Origin: a virus
Strand: one strand, 5' to 3'
Length of the DNA: 43,869 bases
UHGV virus genome: UHGV-0210493
Part shown: positions 131 to 7,068 of the stretch, piece by piece
Layout: each line of letters begins with the position of its first letter
Numbering within the stretch: position 1 is the stretch's first letter
The notes under the pieces: generated by a model
The model's input: the letters and a program-made list of their open reading frames with translations, nothing else
Told to the model about the DNA's origin: nothing
Databases searched by the model: none
Position numbers and translations under genes: made by a program

Positions 131-562
131 TCATTTCCCCAACTCCCCTACTTTTTGATCCGTATACTGCCGTAATTCGCTCACACGCTGTTCTAACTGT
201 TCCTTGTCGTTTTGCACTGTTGATAGTTGTTGGCGCAAGCTATCGGCTTCCTGTTGCTTTGTAGCGATCTCCTGTTGCTTTTGTTCGATTTCTCGTTGCT
301 TGGCTTCAATTTCCTTCTGCTTGTCCGATTTGATTTGTTCAATTTCAGCTTTCAACTGTTCTTGTGTGCGAGTGTTGTTGGATAGCTGCGATTCGAGTTC
401 TGACACACGTTGCGATTTGGTTTGTCCGTATTGTAGGACTGTGTTGAAGTTTGCCTTGATCGTGTCCAAATCTTGAAATGCGTTGCTTGCTGCGTAGCCG
501 ATAACGCCGCTACCTAGTGCTAGTCCGATGATTGCTGTTGTTTTTGCTAGTTTGTTTTTCAA
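131..562 (-). CDS. membrane-anchored coiled-coil protein (hypothetical)
   Basis: N-terminal hydrophobic segment followed by a long Q/E/K-rich heptad region; ORF track. Confidence 0.55.
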   Translation of the reverse strand: MKNKLAKTTAIIGLALGSGVIGYAASNAFQDLDTIKANFNTVLQYGQTKSQRVSELESQLSNNTRTQEQLKAEIEQIKSDKQKEIEAKQREIEQKQQEIATKQQEADSLRQQLSTVQNDKEQLEQRVSELRQYTDQKVGELGK

Positions 563-2236: not shown

Positions 2237-2264
2237 TTGATTTAAAATCATATTATGATATAAT
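2237..2264 (+). promoter_or_regulatory. rightward promoter for cI-like gene (-35 TTGATT, 16 bp, -10 TATAAT), overlapping operator O3 (2238..2252, TTGATTTAAAATCAT)
   Basis: Near-consensus sigma-A hexamers about 30 bp upstream of RBS AAAGGAGG and the ATG at 2293. Confidence 0.55.
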
Positions 2265-2292: not shown

Positions 2293-3006
2293 ATGGAAAG
2301 CATAGGTCAAAGAATTAGAAATTTGCGAGAAATGAAAAATATGACACAAACAGAATTATCTCAATCTTTAGGAATGAAAACTTACACAACTGTTTCAAAG
2401 TGGGAAAGTGATGATAATTTCCCCAAAGGAAGAGACTTAAAGAAATTATCTGAATTATTCGGGGTTAGCTCTGATTATCTTTTAGGTCTTAATACAAATA
2501 AAAATGTTACTTCAATTGAAACAATCTACAATCAATTAGAAAAACCAAGACAAACAAAAGTCTACAACTTTGCTGAACAGCAACTTGAAGAACAAAACAG
2601 TAAAGTGGTTCAATTCCCTGTTCAAAATAACCATGAAGAGGTGCAAGCTTACCTATCAGCTGGTACTGGTATTTTAAACTATTATGAAGCTGATAAAGAT
2701 ATAGCGGAAGTTCCTGCAGATGCACCAGAACATGATTGGATATTTAAAATTGTCGGCGATTCTATGAAGCCGTTGTTTGATACTGGTGATATCGTGTATG
2801 TGGATGAGTTCAAACAAGGCATAGATACTATACAAAACGGTAGAATTTATGTAGTTGAGGTTGACGGAGAAGCTTATATAAAGAAAGTCTATGTATACGA
2901 AGAAACAAAAACGCTTAGATTGGTTTCCCTTAACAAAGATTATATGGATTTGCTATTTAGATTTGAGGATTCGGATATTAAGTTTATTGGTCGTGTCATA
3001 ATTTGA
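2293..3006 (+). CDS. cI/LexA-like prophage repressor (N-terminal HTH_XRE, C-terminal S24 peptidase)
   Basis: N-terminal QTELSQSLGMKTYTTVSKWE HTH; C-terminal GDSM...K S24 serine/lysine dyad motifs. Confidence 0.85.
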   Translation: MESIGQRIRNLREMKNMTQTELSQSLGMKTYTTVSKWESDDNFPKGRDLKKLSELFGVSSDYLLGLNTNKNVTSIETIYNQLEKPRQTKVYNFAEQQLEEQNSKVVQFPVQNNHEEVQAYLSAGTGILNYYEADKDIAEVPADAPEHDWIFKIVGDSMKPLFDTGDIVYVDEFKQGIDTIQNGRIYVVEVDGEAYIKKVYVYEETKTLRLVSLNKDYMDLLFRFEDSDIKFIGRVII

Positions 3007-3064
3007 TCATTGCCAATATTGTTATTCGCCATTTGATCACTATTTAAAAAAAGGAGATGTAAAA

Positions 3065-3622
3065 ATGAAAAAGTACTTAATTATAATATCTGTTTTGTCG
3101 GTATGTTTAATCGCTGTTGCTTGTGGTTTTGCTTATACTTCCTTTACCATCACAGAACAAAGAGAGAACAATCACGTCTTGAGCAAGAGCTTAACAACCG
3201 CTAAATCTGAAATCAATGAAATGAAAAATGAGGTTGACGAAAAGAAAAAAAGCATTTCAGAACTCGAATCACAAATAAAAAAACTCGAAAAGGAAATTAA
3301 AGAAAATGATAGTAACGAAGTAGCATACAATGAAGAAACTGATGATTCGTTGCAAGTTGCCACTCAAAATGAAACACCTGATAATAATTTTTCATCTGAT
3401 AGCGTAGCGTCGGATTCAGCCAATAACACGGAAAAAACGGCCTCTTCAGCCGAAGAGCAAGTGGTTGTTGATACGCCGAAAAATGTGGAATATACTGGAG
3501 AGCCGTTTGCGGAATTTGCTGCAAAATACGGAATGACTGTCGAAGAATTAGCTCAAATGAATAACTTTTCCGATCCTAGTCAAATGATATTGATGAAGGG
3601 ACAAACCGTAACTGTCAAATAA
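3065..3622 (+). CDS. lipoprotein with coiled-coil and C-terminal LysM-like domain
   Basis: Signal peptide with lipobox LIAVAC-G; E/K-rich coiled coil; C-terminal YTGEPFAEFAAKYGMTVEELAQMN...GQTV LysM-like. Confidence 0.7.
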   Translation: MKKYLIIISVLSVCLIAVACGFAYTSFTITEQRENNHVLSKSLTTAKSEINEMKNEVDEKKKSISELESQIKKLEKEIKENDSNEVAYNEETDDSLQVATQNETPDNNFSSDSVASDSANNTEKTASSAEEQVVVDTPKNVEYTGEPFAEFAAKYGMTVEELAQMNNFSDPSQMILMKGQTVTVK

Positions 3623-3655
3623 ATAATTAATTTTTAATTATTAGGAGTTGATACA

Positions 3656-5056
3656 ATGAAAAAAGCGGGCTTATATATTCGAGTTTCCACTCCTCAACAA
3701 GAAAAAGAAGGCTACTCAATCGAAGCGCAAACGGAAAAACTCAACGCTTACGCAATAGCAAAAGATTATAAAGTGTTCAAGACCTATACAGATGCAGCCT
3801 TTTCTGGCGCTAAACTTGAACGGCCGGCGCTTAATGAAATGATCGAAGATATCGAAAACAATAAAATAGATGTCGTCATCGTTTACAAGCTTGACCGACT
3901 TTCTCGTAGCCAAAAGAACACTATGTATTTGATCGAAGATGTGTTTCTCAAAAATAATGTTGATTTCATCAGCATGCAAGAAAGTTTTGATACTACCACC
4001 TCTTTCGGTCGTGCAATGATCGGAATTCTTTCAGTTTTCGCCCAATTGGAGCGTGATAACATTACAGAACGCATGTCAATGGGGAAACTTGAACGTGTGA
4101 AACGTGGCTATTACATGGGTGGCGGTAATGTTCCATTTGGATATGAGTACAATCAAATTACAGGCGAATTAGAAATACAAGAAACACAAGCATTAGCTGT
4201 TAAGCGAATGTTTGAACTTTTTTTAAACGGACAAGCGATAAATAAGATTGTTTCTACATTGAAAAAAGAATTCCCTGTTTTTGAAGATAGCTTCATGGAC
4301 TCTACCGTCAGAAGAAGGCTTCAATCTCATTATTATTGCGGGAAACAGAAATATCAAAACAAAATATACGATGCTAAACACGAACCTATCGTTTCTACAA
4401 AAGACTTCAACAAAGCGCAGCGTTTAATTAGCAATAGACCTCACAGCAATGCGTTTAACCACAGTTATTTATTTTCGGGGCTCATTATATGCCACAAGTG
4501 CGGAAAGCCTTACAATGGATATGAGAGCGTTAGAACCGCCAACGGGAAAAAATATAAACATAAGTATTATCGTTGCTCGTGCAGGACTTACAAGCATAAG
4601 CAAAAATACGGTTGGGCTTGTTCAGGTAAATCTTATCGATGCGATTTTTTGGACGCAGCAATTATGAGTGAAATAAAAAAAAGAGCAGAAAATTCTAAGT
4701 TTGCATTAAAAGAAGATAATAACGAAGTAGATAATAAACCTATCATTAGAGAAATCGCCCGACTTAACGCTCAGCAATCAAAGCTATTAGATTTGTATCT
4801 ATCAGATAAAATATCCACAAATATCTTAGATAATAAAACCGATGAGCTTAAAGAGAAAATAGAAAAATTAGAATTACAGTTGAATCAGACGGTGAGTAAA
4901 AAAGATAAAGAAGAGTTTGAAAAATCATTAGAAGAGTTAGTTGATAAATTTGAAGAATTGGATTTTTCTACCAGACGGAGCTTGATAGAAAATATTATTG
5001 AGAAGATCGAGGTTGTTGACGATGAAATTACTATATACTTTTATGTGACCATTTAA
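3656..5056 (+). CDS. int: large serine recombinase (phage integrase)
   Basis: N-terminal resolvase catalytic domain (GLYIRVSTPQQ, active-site Ser), recombinase domain, Cys-rich zinc ribbon (CHKCG...CSC...C), C-terminal coiled coil. Confidence 0.9.
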   Translation: MKKAGLYIRVSTPQQEKEGYSIEAQTEKLNAYAIAKDYKVFKTYTDAAFSGAKLERPALNEMIEDIENNKIDVVIVYKLDRLSRSQKNTMYLIEDVFLKNNVDFISMQESFDTTTSFGRAMIGILSVFAQLERDNITERMSMGKLERVKRGYYMGGGNVPFGYEYNQITGELEIQETQALAVKRMFELFLNGQAINKIVSTLKKEFPVFEDSFMDSTVRRRLQSHYYCGKQKYQNKIYDAKHEPIVSTKDFNKAQRLISNRPHSNAFNHSYLFSGLIICHKCGKPYNGYESVRTANGKKYKHKYYRCSCRTYKHKQKYGWACSGKSYRCDFLDAAIMSEIKKRAENSKFALKEDNNEVDNKPIIREIARLNAQQSKLLDLYLSDKISTNILDNKTDELKEKIEKLELQLNQTVSKKDKEEFEKSLEELVDKFEELDFSTRRSLIENIIEKIEVVDDEITIYFYVTI

Positions 5057-5090
5057 GCAATCACTTGCATGTTTGGTTATTTGGACACGT

Positions 5091-5154: not shown

Positions 5155-5252
5155 TGATATGACATATTTCATTATAATAGGTTAGCACACACCTGAATCT
5201 GTCTGATATACTATATATACCAAAAGAATAGAACTTGTGAACATTAACTCGG

Positions 5253-5560: not shown

Positions 5561-5586
5561 TTACCACGGAAGCTTGTTGTTGTTCA
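5561..5586. repeat. 26-bp direct repeat copy 2 (encodes the endolysin C-terminus ...NNNKLPW*)
   Basis: Exact match to 5129..5154. Confidence 0.85.
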
Positions 5587-6481
5587 ATGCTACTTGCAAT
5601 GATTTGACCATGTTAGAAACAGGGCTGATAACTCCATCAACCGTTGTCTTCAAGGCTCGTTGCATAGCTTTAATCATTTCTGTACCGCACAACCCATCGA
5701 TCGCACCTTTGTATAAACCTTTCGCTTTCAACCTTTTCTGCCATTTACGAATCAACGTTGATCCTTTTAGCGTATTATCGAATTGCGCCGCATAAAGGTT
5801 CTTGTTGCACGCCTGCCGGTATTGGTGACTGATTTCATCATCTGGCGTAATCCCCTCATATTTCATTGCTTTATTGGCAGTGCTTGGTCCAAACATGCCG
5901 TCTTCTTGGATTTTATTGGTATTTGGTTTTACAGAAGGTGTACTAGGTTTGACTGTTGAATTTGATGATCCAGAATTATTGTTTGATGTGCTGTCTCCGT
6001 TGTAATATTTTTTGATTTGATCCACGAAATATTGTTTGATAGCTGCTACACCTTTTCCATGCAAATCCCACGCTCTGTGAGGACACGATGTAGAACTCAA
6101 CTCACGATGTAACGGAAACACGGCTGAAGCGGGATTCAAACCGTATTTTTTACATAACTCGGCAGCTAACTTAAATGCTTTTTGCTCATTTGCAAGATAC
6201 GTGGATTCATTCCCCATGGATTGACATACTTCAATCCCCAAGTAATTAGCATTGCCTTTGCTGTTACCTGTATGCCAAGCCTTGTTGCTATCCTTCTCAG
6301 CTTGGTATGTTCCATCGCTAGCAACATAGTAATGAGCAAATCCTAAAGAAGGAGTATGGCTTTCTAGCCAGTTTTTATAAAATGCAGCAGTCGCACCTTG
6401 GCTTCCGGCATCATTATGCAAAACGATTGCTGTCGGGTTTGATCCACGAGCACCCGCAATTCCTGAATAACTTACTACCAT
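5561..6481 (-). CDS. endolysin: N-acetylmuramoyl-L-alanine amidase (Amidase_2/PGRP) with C-terminal peptidoglycan-binding domain
   Basis: Amidase_2-like catalytic region (HNDAGS..., CPHRAW); C-terminal PG_binding_1-like repeat (GLYKGAIDGLCGTEMIKA). Confidence 0.85.
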   Translation of the reverse strand: MVVSYSGIAGARGSNPTAIVLHNDAGSQGATAAFYKNWLESHTPSLGFAHYYVASDGTYQAEKDSNKAWHTGNSKGNANYLGIEVCQSMGNESTYLANEQKAFKLAAELCKKYGLNPASAVFPLHRELSSTSCPHRAWDLHGKGVAAIKQYFVDQIKKYYNGDSTSNNNSGSSNSTVKPSTPSVKPNTNKIQEDGMFGPSTANKAMKYEGITPDDEISHQYRQACNKNLYAAQFDNTLKGSTLIRKWQKRLKAKGLYKGAIDGLCGTEMIKAMQRALKTTVDGVISPVSNMVKSLQVALNNNKLPW

Positions 6482-6790
6482 TTACTCCACCTCCACTAAT
6501 TTGTGATTTGGCAATGACAACATTTGACCTTCTAGTTCAATCTTGGTAAAGATTTTATTCGATCTTAAAACTTTGTATTTTCCTGTTAAGTAAAAGAAAT
6601 CACCAACTTGAAATCCGTCAAATTCTTTAGGTAGTCCATCCGAGGTAACCTCTTTAAAACCATTTTCTTCGTATCGATCGACCGTTTCTGTTTCCCCTTT
6701 TTCGAAGGGATCTAACTGGACATATTCTTCTCCAACTTCTTTGACTTGTAACTTTCCGAGTACAGTTACATATGAGCCTTCTTTAAACAT
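6482..6790 (-). CDS. hypothetical beta-rich protein between holin and endolysin
   Basis: ORF track; stop abuts the amidase start. Confidence 0.5.
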   Translation of the reverse strand: MFKEGSYVTVLGKLQVKEVGEEYVQLDPFEKGETETVDRYEENGFKEVTSDGLPKEFDGFQVGDFFYLTGKYKVLRSNKIFTKIELEGQMLSLPNHKLVEVE

Positions 6791-6831
6791 TATTCTTCCT
6801 CCTTCAGATATAGAAAAGGAGCAGCCAATGG

Positions 6832-7068
6832 CTACTCCTTCTTTTCTGTGAACTCTTGACCATCGCCATAATCAGTTGAATTGTAATTATTGCTAGATAC
6901 ACCAAGTACTACACCAGCAAATGCGGTGACCAATGAGATCAGCCCCACAATTTTCGTTGCGTCAAAACCATATAAAGTTGCGATTCCAGCAATCAAGACT
7001 GCTAATGCTGGCGACCATTGTGTAATCACCGTTTTTGCAAAATCATATTGTTTATTAGTTAATTTCAT
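6832..7068 (-). CDS. holin
   Basis: 78 aa; two hydrophobic TM segments; charged C-terminal tail; immediately upstream of the endolysin cassette. Confidence 0.7.
   Translation of the reverse strand: MKLTNKQYDFAKTVITQWSPALAVLIAGIATLYGFDATKIVGLISLVTAFAGVVLGVSSNNYNSTDYGDGQEFTEKKE

What the first reader, a model, noticed from the sequence alone, without database searches (positions are those of the whole stretch)
3065..3622. Lipoprotein encoded between repressor and integrase: superinfection-exclusion candidate
It has a signal peptide with lipobox (LIAVAC|G), a coiled coil, and a C-terminal LysM-like peptidoglycan-binding domain. It sits in the lysogeny module and is transcribed with cI and int. 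This is the position occupied by Ltp-type Sie lipoproteins in Streptococcus/Lactococcus phages. The domain composition (coiled coil + LysM) differs from Ltp, so the mechanism, if any, could be different.
Basis: partly seen in the sequence, partly recalled or inferred. Interest (0 to 1): 0.55.

Follow-up and report, generated by a model that had tools for sequence, protein, structure and literature searches.

The report
Prophage membrane-tethered coiled-coil LysM protein
A small gene between the repressor and integrase of an Enterococcus temperate phage encodes a membrane-tethered coiled-coil protein ending in a LysM (cell-wall-binding type) domain. It is a real, conserved and very rare protein family that plausibly blocks entry of other phages, but nothing here shows that it does.

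Summary
The ORF at 3065-3622 (+), 185 aa, is real. It has a strong SD. It is collinear in more than 60 near-identical sequences, always in the slot cI - X - serine integrase. dN/dS is 0.21 overall and 0.026 in the C-terminal domain.

- an N-terminal hydrophobic anchor with a lipobox-pattern Cys20;
- six unbroken heptads (residues 39-81);
- an acidic, disordered linker of about 50 aa;
- a C-terminal beta-alpha-alpha-beta LysM fold (Pfam 22.0 bits against a cutoff of 20.9; AF2 pLDDT above 92; the top Foldseek PDB hits are all LysM).

Two caveats apply. Lipidation is uncertain: distant homologues carry no Cys (TM anchor) or a textbook lipobox, so the anchor type switches within the family. The LysM glycan-binding motif reads GEPF instead of GDTL, and Pro at the key Thr position occurs in 0 of 582 related LysM modules.

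The protein is not an Ltp-family member. It scores below threshold for the chromosomal SAG1386/EF1546 LysM family. It has no homologue in GenBank phages. The host is Enterococcus gallinarum/casseliflavus.

A 28%-identical homologue sits in the same slot next to a tyrosine integrase. That supports a lysogen-expressed envelope "cargo" gene. Superinfection exclusion is the best guess (about 0.4) and is untested.

The parts
2237..2264 (+). Promoter-like site (TTGATT-16-TATAAT, with a TG extension) upstream of the cI-like gene; candidate promoter of the cI-X-int unit
   Evidence: It is the best-scoring + strand site, but the number of such sites in the region equals the shuffle expectation, so this is only a consensus match.
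2293..3006 (+). cI/LexA-like repressor (HTH_3 + Peptidase_S24), 237 aa
   Evidence: Pfam; phrog_4. Its N-terminal DNA-binding part differs from relatives (73% identity overall), which indicates a different immunity type.
3051..3056 (+). Shine-Dalgarno AAGGAG, 8 nt upstream of the ATG of the target gene
   Evidence: invariant in 6 loci.
3065..3622 (+). Target gene, 185 aa: membrane anchor + coiled coil + disordered linker + LysM
3065..3154 (+). Residues 1-30: MKK n-region, then a 27-aa uncharged stretch. The Cys20 codon is at 3122-3124, in the lipobox-pattern context I-A-V-A-C|G. Either a lipoprotein signal peptide or an N-in/C-out signal anchor.
   Evidence: patterns, hydropathy; invariant in close homologues; the Cys is absent in P0023 and P0011; P0088 has a canonical lipobox.
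3179..3307 (+). Residues 39-81: six unbroken heptads, with Ile/Val at a and Leu/Met at d. Predicted parallel coiled-coil stalk of about 6 nm.
   Evidence: heptad register; helix, pLDDT 90-96. The dimer state is inferred from the a/d residue types.
3320..3475 (+). Residues 86-137: acidic (net charge -11), S/T/N/D/E-rich disordered linker
   Evidence: pLDDT below 50 over residues 87-135; composition; highest dN/dS, 0.41.
3476..3619 (+). Residues 138-185: LysM-fold domain (beta-alpha-alpha-beta), with GEPF (145-148) in place of the canonical GDTL
   Evidence: dN/dS is 0.026.
3656..5056 (+). Large serine integrase (Resolvase + Recombinase + Zn_ribbon_recom), 466 aa. It starts 33 nt after the target stop codon.
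5060..5075 (.). attP core shared with attB at the 3' end of an aldo-keto reductase gene next to purD of Enterococcus gallinarum. The crossover lies within TGCAT (5066-5070).

Best explanation
Gene X is a lysogeny-operon cargo gene, probably transcribed with the repressor and the serine integrase.

Its product is exported N-in/C-out and stays tethered to the outer face of the cytoplasmic membrane. The tether is either a lipid on Cys20 or the uncleaved hydrophobic helix.

Six heptads would zip two (or a few) chains into a parallel stalk. Two acidic, flexible linkers of about 50 residues would then let the C-terminal LysM domains reach into the peptidoglycan. The result would be a bivalent membrane-to-wall tether.

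The most likely purpose is to protect the lysogen at the envelope level against incoming phages (superinfection exclusion). It would interfere with the step between adsorption and DNA entry. Candidate ways of doing so are occupying or stiffening the wall-membrane interface where the tail tip must act, or masking glycan strands from the tail-associated muralytic enzyme.

Shown here: the gene, its conservation, its slot and its architecture. Inferred: export topology, oligomerisation, wall binding, expression in the lysogen and the anti-phage role.
For: Real gene under purifying selection.

Same slot in every close relative, even though the repressor N-terminus differs and one integrase is only 61% identical while X is 86% identical.

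A 28%-identical full-length homologue lies between an S24 repressor and a tyrosine integrase in an unrelated phage.

No terminator-like site in the short, conserved gaps.

Architecture.

The anchor type changes among homologues (TM only, lipobox only, or both possible) while the coiled coil, linker and LysM are kept. This suggests the N-terminus is only a tether.

Multiple LysM modules increase wall binding (PMC4083421). A coiled coil could supply that multiplicity.

Precedents:
- Ltp and lactococcal Sie proteins are membrane-tethered, sit between int and repressor, are expressed in the lysogen and block DNA injection (PMC3952083, PMC6356687).
- A wall-bound protein, CwpV, blocks DNA injection (PMC4737114).
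- T4 Sp inhibits the tail lysozyme (PMC4737114, PMC11436027).

These phages carry a tail protein with Lysozyme_like + Peptidase_M23 domains.
Against: There are no functional data of any kind.

There is no similarity to Ltp. There is no similarity to any PADLOC defence family beyond coiled-coil noise.

The Thr of the GDTL motif is Pro here. T13A costs 60-fold affinity in AtlA (PMC4083421). T47A reduced PG binding in vitro and abolished YneA's division-inhibiting activity (PMC13396833). Pro at this position occurs in 0 of 582 related LysM modules. Wall binding may therefore be weak or altered.

The LysM and coiled coil show strong purifying selection and no sign of an arms race.

The same window carries an acyltransferase gene (9066-10031) on the lysogeny strand that could already provide adsorption-level exclusion.

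One homologue (P0023) lies next to the lysis cassette rather than in a lysogeny operon.
Confidence: 0.4

Rival explanations
1. Lysogenic-conversion or wall-homeostasis factor. A phage copy of the small surface-associated LysM proteins of enterococci and streptococci (SAG1386/EF1546 type) that changes wall properties of the lysogen, such as autolysis, chain length, sensitivity to endolysin released by induced siblings, or adhesion. It would have no direct role in excluding phages.
For: The best named family is NF042931, SAG1386/EF1546 surface-associated protein: E = 2.6e-7 for the target and 1.1e-15 for P0023, aligned through to the C-terminal end of the profile. EF1546 is a LysM protein of unknown function (PMC4556446, PMC12502612). 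The LysM is under very strong purifying selection, which fits a conserved host ligand. NCBI names a cluster member in E. casseliflavus simply as a LysM peptidoglycan-binding protein.
Against: Scores are far below the family cutoff: 30.9 and 58 bits against 80. Every instance with usable context is in a phage, and none is chromosomal. No homologue was found in 185,579 species-representative genomes. The function of EF1546 itself is unknown, so this reading predicts little.
Confidence: 0.3
2. YneA-like modulator of septal peptidoglycan synthesis. A single-pass membrane protein with an extracellular LysM that docks on the divisome through its TM segment and slows division of the lysogen or of the induced cell.
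For: YneA is a single TM segment plus an extracellular LysM domain. It needs both the TM segment and PG binding, and it targets FtsW (PMC13396833). The target's TM region is nearly invariant, including GFAY after the Cys, which is also kept in P0023. The gene is adjacent to a LexA-like S24 repressor.
Against: The regulatory logic is opposite. X lies downstream of cI and is co-directional with it, so it would be expressed while the repressor is made rather than on SOS induction. A constitutive division inhibitor would be costly. X has a six-heptad coiled coil and a 50-aa linker that YneA lacks. The homologue P0088 is a plain lipoprotein with a 14-residue h-region and cannot have a TM docking helix. 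The Thr needed for YneA function is Pro here (PMC13396833). No YneA-named family appears among the 25 listed NCBIfam matches.
Confidence: 0.08
3. Lysis accessory. [quoted passage not shown]
For: There are weak PHROG hits to Rz-like spanins: phrog_89 at E = 1.7e-5 and phrog_739 at E = 6.3e-5. The P0023 homologue lies beside the lysis cassette. LysM is common in endolysins.
Against: The PHROG hits cover only the TM plus coiled-coil region and look compositional. The host is Gram-positive and has no outer membrane to span. The gene is on the lysogeny strand, opposite to the holin and endolysin at 5561-7068 (-). P0023 is convergent with the lysis genes, not co-transcribed with them.
Confidence: 0.06
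4. Chance ORF or decaying gene without function.
For: The family is very small. Apart from multi-LysM proteins that match only the C-terminal domain, just four clusters were found among about 15 billion proteins.
Against: dN/dS is 0.21 overall and 0.026 in LysM. There are no frameshifts or length changes in more than 30 sequences. The SD is conserved. The fold is confidently predicted.
Confidence: 0.01

Closest known systems
Ltp of Streptococcus thermophilus phage TP-J34 (Pfam PF07553, host cell surface-exposed lipoprotein; superinfection exclusion)
   Same: Small exported protein tethered to the outer face of the membrane. The N-terminus is of the MKK...AC type. The gene lies between the repressor and the integrase on the lysogeny strand (PMC3952083).
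   Different: No sequence or domain relationship: PF07553 scores 116 bits for Ltp and nothing for the target, and BLASTP gives E = 0.14. Ltp has two helical repeat domains and is thought to target the tape measure protein. The target has a coiled coil plus LysM. In TP-J34 the record annotates a terminator after ltp and a separate promoter for int. Neither is seen here.
SAG1386/EF1546 family surface-associated LysM proteins (NCBIfam NF042931)
   Same: Short proteins with an N-terminal anchor, a low-complexity middle and a single C-terminal LysM. This is the best named match. They occur in enterococci and streptococci.
   Different: Below the family cutoff: 30.9 bits against 80. Those proteins are chromosomal, while this one is phage-borne. 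Their function is unknown (PMC4556446, PMC12502612). Whether they have a heptad stalk was not examined.
YneA of Bacillus subtilis (SOS-induced division inhibitor: single TM + extracellular LysM)
   Same: Single N-terminal membrane segment with an extracellular LysM. The gene neighbours a LexA/cI-type S24 repressor (PMC13396833).
   Different: YneA is SOS-induced, whereas this gene is co-directional with and downstream of the repressor. YneA has no coiled coil or long linker. The Asp/Thr of GDTL required for YneA function are Glu/Pro here.
Lactococcal Sie2009-type proteins and the membrane protein/metallopeptidase pair of E. faecalis prophage pp6
   Same: Membrane-anchored products of genes between int and repressor. 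They are expressed in the lysogen and are linked to a block of DNA injection (PMC6356687, PMC4737114).
   Different: Those proteins have no LysM and no coiled coil. No homology was tested directly here, because no family model for them was available.
CwpV of Clostridioides difficile and Sp (spackle) of phage T4
   Same: Both are envelope-located proteins that stop infection after adsorption. CwpV is wall-bound and T4 Sp inhibits the tail lysozyme (PMC4737114). They are mechanistic precedents for a wall-level block.
   Different: Unrelated sequences and domains. CwpV is host-encoded and phase-variable. Sp is periplasmic in a Gram-negative host.

Membership tests
Ltp-type Sie lipoproteins (PF07553) | Ltp repeat domain(s) detectable with PF07553 | tested here: not met
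   The positive control, TP-J34 Ltp, scores 116 bits with 2 stretches. The target has no PF07553 hit among its 25 listed Pfam matches. BLASTP against Ltp gives E = 0.14.
Ltp-type Sie lipoproteins (PF07553) | Lipoprotein signal peptide with a lipobox Cys | tested here: inconclusive
   G+LPP and PS51257 patterns match at Cys20 in the target and in 22 close homologues. However, the hydrophobic stretch continues to residue 30. The homologues P0023 and P0011 lack the Cys, while P0088 has a canonical LTAC|G. No SignalP/LipoP run or lipid labelling was possible.
Ltp-type Sie lipoproteins (PF07553) | Gene in the lysogeny module between repressor and integrase, on the same strand | tested here: met
.
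Ltp-type Sie lipoproteins (PF07553) | Expressed in the prophage state and blocks DNA injection | not testable with these tools
   Needs a lysogen transcriptome plus efficiency-of-plating, adsorption and DNA-entry assays.
LysM domain (PF01476) | Score at or above the Pfam gathering threshold | tested here: met
   22.0 bits against 20.9, E = 1.6e-4, residues 152-184 matching profile positions 13-42. This is marginal. P0023 and P0011 score 20.2 bits, just below the cutoff.
LysM domain (PF01476) | beta-alpha-alpha-beta fold superimposable on solved LysM modules | tested here: met
   AF2 gives E139-142, H148-154, H159-165, E181-184 with pLDDT 92-95. The top Foldseek PDB hits are all LysM, with rmsd 1.7-2.6 A and target-normalised TM-score up to 0.75 for single-module entries. 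BFVD hits are likewise LysM.
LysM domain (PF01476) | Canonical glycan-binding residues (G-D/E-T/S-L at the start of helix 1; a hydrophobic residue before strand 2) | tested here: inconclusive
   The target has GEPF. G, E and F occur among relatives, but Pro at the Thr position occurs in 0 of 582 aligned modules. T13A in AtlA reduces affinity 60-fold (PMC4083421). One close homologue (P0007) has GESF. The hydrophobic I175/L176 are kept.
LysM domain (PF01476) | Binds peptidoglycan or GlcNAc polymers | not testable with these tools
   Needs a sacculus pull-down or ELISA with the purified domain.
SAG1386/EF1546 surface-associated protein (NF042931) | Whole-protein score at or above the curated cutoff (80 bits) | tested here: not met
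   Target 30.9 bits, P0023 58 bits, P0011 19.9 bits.
YneA-type division inhibitors | Single TM segment + extracellular LysM | tested here: met
   PMC13396833 for the YneA definition.
YneA-type division inhibitors | SOS (LexA)-repressed expression, induced on DNA damage | tested here: not met
   The gene lies 58 nt downstream of cI and is co-directional with it, with no terminator between them and no better promoter-like site of its own. This is inferred from sequence only.
YneA-type division inhibitors | Asp and Thr of GDTL, required for PG binding and activity | tested here: not met
   Glu146 and Pro147 occupy these positions; PMC13396833 section 7 for the requirement.
Rz-like spanins (phrog_89, phrog_739) | Located in the lysis cassette of a phage of a diderm host, partnered with an outer-membrane lipoprotein | tested here: not met
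   The host is Enterococcus. The gene is on the opposite strand from the holin and endolysin. The PHROG hits cover only the TM plus coiled-coil region.

The most novel reading that the evidence does not exclude
A Gram-positive counterpart of T4 Spackle that works through the substrate rather than the enzyme. A membrane-tethered coiled-coil dimer would present two atypical LysM domains that coat or cross-brace the innermost peptidoglycan. The tail-tip muralytic module of incoming siphophages (Lysozyme_like + M23) then could not open the wall, or the tape measure could not reach the membrane. This would be a new, LysM-based class of superinfection exclusion. The membrane anchor would be interchangeable (lipid or TM helix) across the family.
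Probability: 0.12. Interest if true: 0.65.

Novelty: new variant of a known kind. Interest (0 to 1): 0.38.

Why it matters
Few Sie mechanisms are known in Gram-positive phages, mainly Ltp and the Sie2009 type, and none in the literature searched here uses a peptidoglycan-binding module. If this protein excludes phages, it would add a wall-level mechanism. It would also matter for phage therapy against vanC enterococci (E. gallinarum/casseliflavus). If it does not, it is still a clean example of a phage-borne relative of the uncharacterised EF1546/SAG1386 LysM proteins, and it could give a handle on what those do. The switch between TM and lipid anchors within one small family is a neat natural experiment on how such proteins are tethered. 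As things stand this is a well-described candidate, not a discovery.

Tried and rejected
- Searches of GenBank phages with 3.5 kb of DNA around the gene and with the protein by tblastn found no match.
- A scan of the GTDB species-representative genomes with the family alignment found no relative. IMG/VR returned only the already known contig.
- Scans with P0011 and P0023 in viral and metagenome contigs found nothing. The A2 alignment was too divergent for a pattern scan.
- PADLOC gave only coiled-coil noise (JetC, LmuB and PbeC stalk regions).
- PHROGs gave weak spanin and unknown-function hits over the TM plus coiled-coil region only.
- A PDB sequence search found only LysM modules and unrelated coiled coils. 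It gave no support for the NCBI title derived from PcsB ("secreted 45 kDa protein ... CHAP"). A 185-aa protein whose segments are all accounted for has no room for a CHAP domain.
- phiEf11 ORF30 is annotated "lysM" and sits next to int/attP (PMC12540744). It is a lipoprotein, but it has no detectable similarity to the target or to P0023.
- The composition profile shows no GC anomaly that would mark a recent foreign insertion.
- The AFDB50 fold library was not available.
- The contig carrying P0011 is only 1.3 kb, so it gives no context.
Full report

The window has an ATG ORF at 3065..3622 (+) of 185 aa. AAGGAG lies at 3051-3056, 8 nt before the start codon.

It lies 58 nt after a cI/LexA-like gene (2293-3006; HTH_3 at 47 bits, Peptidase_S24 at 76 bits). 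It lies 33 nt before a large serine integrase (3656-5056; Resolvase, Recombinase, Zn_ribbon_recom).

On the other strand are a Cro-like HTH gene (1885-2097) and a Rha/ANT antirepressor (1054-1803). The region is therefore a classical divergent lysogeny switch.

A consensus scan finds no + strand terminator-like hairpin in either gap. It finds a good promoter-like site with a TG extension at 2237-2264, in front of cI. The number of promoter-like sites in the region is no higher than in shuffles, so that site is only a lead.

Both gaps, including the SD sequences, are conserved in five related loci.

**2. Is it a gene?**

A search of 5.8 billion protein clusters found only seven clusters, 85-92% identical, all exactly 185 aa. 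The window's own protein sits in a 31-member cluster.

In every contig with enough context the order is S24 repressor - X - serine integrase.

Nei-Gojobori estimates over six loci give these dN/dS values:

| Region | Residues | dN/dS |
|---|---|---|
| Whole gene | 1-185 | 0.21 |
| N-terminus | 1-30 | 0.16 |
| Coiled coil | 31-85 | 0.16 |
| Linker | 86-137 | 0.41 |
| LysM | 138-185 | 0.026 |

This is a protein-coding gene whose C-terminal domain is under very strong constraint.

X travels somewhat independently of its neighbours. The repressor of the window is only 73% identical to those of the relatives, differing in the N-terminal DNA-binding part. In locus L011 the integrase is only 61% identical while X is 86% identical.

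**3. Host**

Loci L005 and L006 are integrated prophages. Directly after the integrase come an aldo-keto reductase gene and purD, purH, purN and purM. The PurD protein is 100% identical to that of Enterococcus gallinarum NBRC 100675. A cluster member is annotated in E. casseliflavus.

Comparing the phage form (window), the prophage junction (L005) and the empty site (L013) places the attP core at about 5060-5075. The crossover lies within TGCAT at 5066-5070.

**4. Architecture**

- *Anchor.* The N-terminus reads MKK, then 27 uncharged residues (4-30). Cys20 sits in I-A-V-A-C|G and satisfies both the G+LPP and PS51257 lipobox patterns, in the target and in all 22 close homologues tested.
- *Coiled coil.* A single heptad register places L43, I50, V57, I64, I71 and I78 at a, and L39, A46, M53, K60, L67 and L74 at d. 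That is 11 of 16 hydrophobic a/d positions, against 0-6 in the other registers. AF2 gives one continuous helix over 2-87 with pLDDT 90-96 across 41-80. Beta-branched residues at a with Leu at d are the classical signature of parallel dimers. That rests on established knowledge and is an inference here, not a result.
- *Linker.* Residues 87-135 are predicted disordered (pLDDT below 50). They are rich in S, T, N, D and E, with net charge -11.
- *LysM.* Residues 139-184 fold as beta-alpha-alpha-beta with pLDDT 92-95. Pfam LysM scores 22.0 bits against a cutoff of 20.9. The top ~20 Foldseek hits in the PDB are all LysM modules (rmsd 1.7-2.6 A, probability 0.9-1.0, target-normalised TM-score up to 0.75 for single-module entries). 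Hits in the viral structure library are LysM modules of endolysins.

**5. Two caveats on that description**

*Lipidation.* An exhaustive profile search of 1.84 billion representatives found about 320 proteins. Nearly all are multi-LysM proteins that match only the C-terminal domain. A few are collinear over the full length. Pairwise BLASTP confirms three of them as full-length homologues:

| Homologue | Length | E-value | Anchor |
|---|---|---|---|
| P0011 | 175 aa | 7e-22 | No Cys at the aligned position |
| P0023 | 183 aa | 7e-21 | G-G-G where the target has A-C-G, followed by the same GFAYTS; it can only be TM-anchored |
| P0088 | 173 aa | 4e-14 | Textbook signal peptide (MKKHLILAIAVLALTAC|GNSEE) with a 14-residue h-region; it can only be a lipoprotein |

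The family keeps coiled coil, linker and LysM but swaps the anchor. For the target both anchors are possible, and sequence alone does not decide. Either way the topology is N-in/C-out, tethered to the outer face of the membrane.

*The LysM ligand site.* In alignments to solved LysM modules the target's G145-E-P-F148 occupies the place of the canonical G-D-T-L. I aligned 582 LysM modules from the 149 best-scoring proteins to the target's domain. The third position was T, S or N in 539 of them and was never P.

In E. faecalis AtlA, T13A lowers affinity 60-fold, and L14A and I39A lower it 80-fold (PMC4083421). In B. subtilis YneA, D46A and T47A each abolished division inhibition and reduced PG binding in vitro (PMC13396833).

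One close homologue has GESF. The distant homologues have GEHL, GSNM and GGDF. The fold is LysM, but wall binding should not be taken for granted. It may be weak, compensated by avidity, or directed at something else.

**6. What it is not**

- *Not Ltp.* TP-J34 Ltp, used as a positive control, scores 116 bits on PF07553. The target has no such hit, and BLASTP of the two gives E = 0.14.
- *Not a known defence family.* PADLOC returns only matches to the coiled-coil stalks of SMC-like proteins.
- *Not a spanin.* The PHROG spanin hits (E about 1e-5) cover only the TM plus coiled-coil region. The host has no outer membrane, and the gene is on the strand opposite to the lysis cassette (holin 6832-7068, endolysin 5561-6481).
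- *Not PcsB/CHAP.* The title attached to this protein in NCBI nr ("secreted 45 kDa protein ... CHAP") appears to be borrowed from the PcsB structure entry and probably reflects a coiled-coil match. No such hit appears in a PDB sequence search.
- *Not in GenBank phage genomes.* There is no DNA or protein match.

The nearest named family is NCBIfam NF042931, "SAG1386/EF1546 family surface-associated protein". The target scores 30.9 bits and P0023 scores 58 bits. Both are below the 80-bit cutoff. EF1546 is a chromosomal E. faecalis LysM protein of unknown function (PMC4556446, PMC12502612).

**7. The slot**

- In TP-J34 the record annotates cI-homologue, orf3, ltp and int on one strand. [quoted passage not shown]
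- In E. faecalis V583 prophage 6, the membrane-protein and metallopeptidase genes between int and repressor are constitutively expressed and resemble lactococcal Sie loci (PMC6356687).
- In Brochothrix phage BL3, whose serine integrase is 47% identical to the one here, the slot holds a DUF4064 polytopic membrane protein and a TM + DUF4352 protein.
- The distant homologue P0088 lies between an S24 repressor (plus a TPR-like 154-aa gene) and a tyrosine integrase.

The association of this protein family with the repressor-integrase slot has therefore survived a change of integrase class.

The exception is P0023. It lies convergent to the endolysin of an Enterococcus-type phage, at a contig end. 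That is the other classical location of conversion genes.

**8. Mechanism**

*Shown:* a conserved gene; the lysogeny-strand position without intervening terminators; the four-part architecture.

*Inferred:*
- It is co-transcribed with cI, so the protein is present in the lysogen. Constitutive expression of a serine integrase is harmless, because excision needs a directionality factor (established knowledge).
- It is exported N-in/C-out and membrane-tethered.
- The heptads make a parallel dimer.
- The acidic linkers let two LysM domains reach the wall. Multiple LysM modules increase binding (PMC4083421), and dimerisation could supply that multiplicity to a single, atypical module.

*Function:* I favour envelope-level protection against incoming phages, at about 0.4. 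The reasons are the slot and the tethered-outside topology shared with Ltp and the Sie2009 type. A wall-bound protein (CwpV) and a tail-lysozyme inhibitor (T4 Sp) show that the wall step can be targeted (PMC4737114). These phages carry a Lysozyme_like + M23 tail protein (12382-15243) that must open the wall.

*Against this reading:*
- There are no functional data.
- There is no arms-race signature; the domains are under purifying selection.
- The LysM site is atypical.
- A second candidate exclusion gene is present in the same window, an Acyl_transf_3 gene on the lysogeny strand.

*Rivals:*
- A wall-homeostasis or conversion factor of the EF1546 type (0.3).
- A YneA-like inhibitor of septal synthesis (0.08). 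The regulatory logic is wrong, the homologue P0088 has no TM helix, and the key Thr is missing.
- A lysis accessory (0.06).
- A chance ORF (0.01).

**9. Novelty and verdict**

The kind of thing is known: a membrane-tethered cargo protein in the repressor-integrase slot of a Gram-positive temperate phage. This particular family and its anchor + coiled coil + LysM composition have not been described in that role. The literature searches found no LysM-based Sie.

The family is very rare and appears restricted to a few phage lineages. I rate it a new variant of a known kind, with moderate interest (0.38). It is a sound, cheap-to-test candidate rather than a surprise.

Noticed in passing
window 9066-10031 (+) and 7628-8923 (-): A 321-aa Acyl_transf_3 family acyltransferase gene sits on the lysogeny strand. 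Next to it is a 431-aa polytopic membrane protein with no Pfam hit. Both are inserted between the lysis cassette and the BppU/tail genes. Relatives L001, L003 and L009 have no such genes at this position. This is a candidate surface-polysaccharide modification (receptor-masking) conversion module, and arguably a stronger exclusion candidate than the finding itself.
   Followed up: partly
window 5060-5075; L005 7996-8011; L013 ~5175-5190: The attP core is ATCACTTGCATGTTTG and the attB core is ATCACCTGCATATTTG. The crossover lies within TGCAT. The phage integrates into the 3' end of an aldo-keto reductase gene beside purD in Enterococcus gallinarum. The integrase stop codon is 4 nt from the core.
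   Followed up: yes
window 131-562 (-): A second small protein with an N-terminal hydrophobic segment and a long coiled coil (143 aa). It matches phrog_5105 (unknown function) at E = 5e-40 and lies in the early region. A 143-aa gene is present at the same place in all relatives looked at.
   Followed up: no
P0023 / P0011 / P0088 versus window 3065-3154: The anchor switches within one small family. P0088 has a canonical lipobox with a short h-region. P0023 and P0011 have no Cys at all. The target group has both a lipobox pattern and a TM-length hydrophobic stretch.
   Followed up: yes
L011 2879-4255 versus window 3656-5056: In this relative the serine integrase is only 61% identical, while the adjacent gene X is 86% identical and the C-terminal half of cI is nearly the same. 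This indicates a mosaic joint at or just after the X/int boundary.
   Followed up: partly
window 3065-3622 (database name): The identical protein is in NCBI nr as DAG73027.1, titled 'SECRETED 45 KDA PROTEIN CYCLE, PEPTIDOGLYCAN, CHAP, CELL'. This looks like a PDB-title transfer (apparently from the PcsB entry), probably via the coiled coil. There is no CHAP domain, so the name is misleading.
   Followed up: partly
window 3622-3642: A perfect A/T-only palindrome (AATAATTAA-TTT-TTAATTATT) lies between the stop codon of X and the SD of int. A 1-nt deletion breaks it in 3 of 6 related loci, so it is probably not functional.
   Followed up: partly
L100 (phiEf11) 7721-8302 (-): ORF30 of Enterococcus phage phiEf11 is annotated 'endolysin; lysM motif' and lies next to attP/int. 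It is a lipoprotein (LLLLTAC|T) with an S/T-rich linker. It shows no detectable similarity to the target or to P0023. It is another example of a lipoprotein gene beside int in enterococcal phages.
   Followed up: partly
L094 6512-6976 (+): In the phage carrying the homologue P0088, a 154-aa TPR-like protein with no signal sequence lies between the repressor and P0088. It is absent from the enterococcal group.
   Followed up: no
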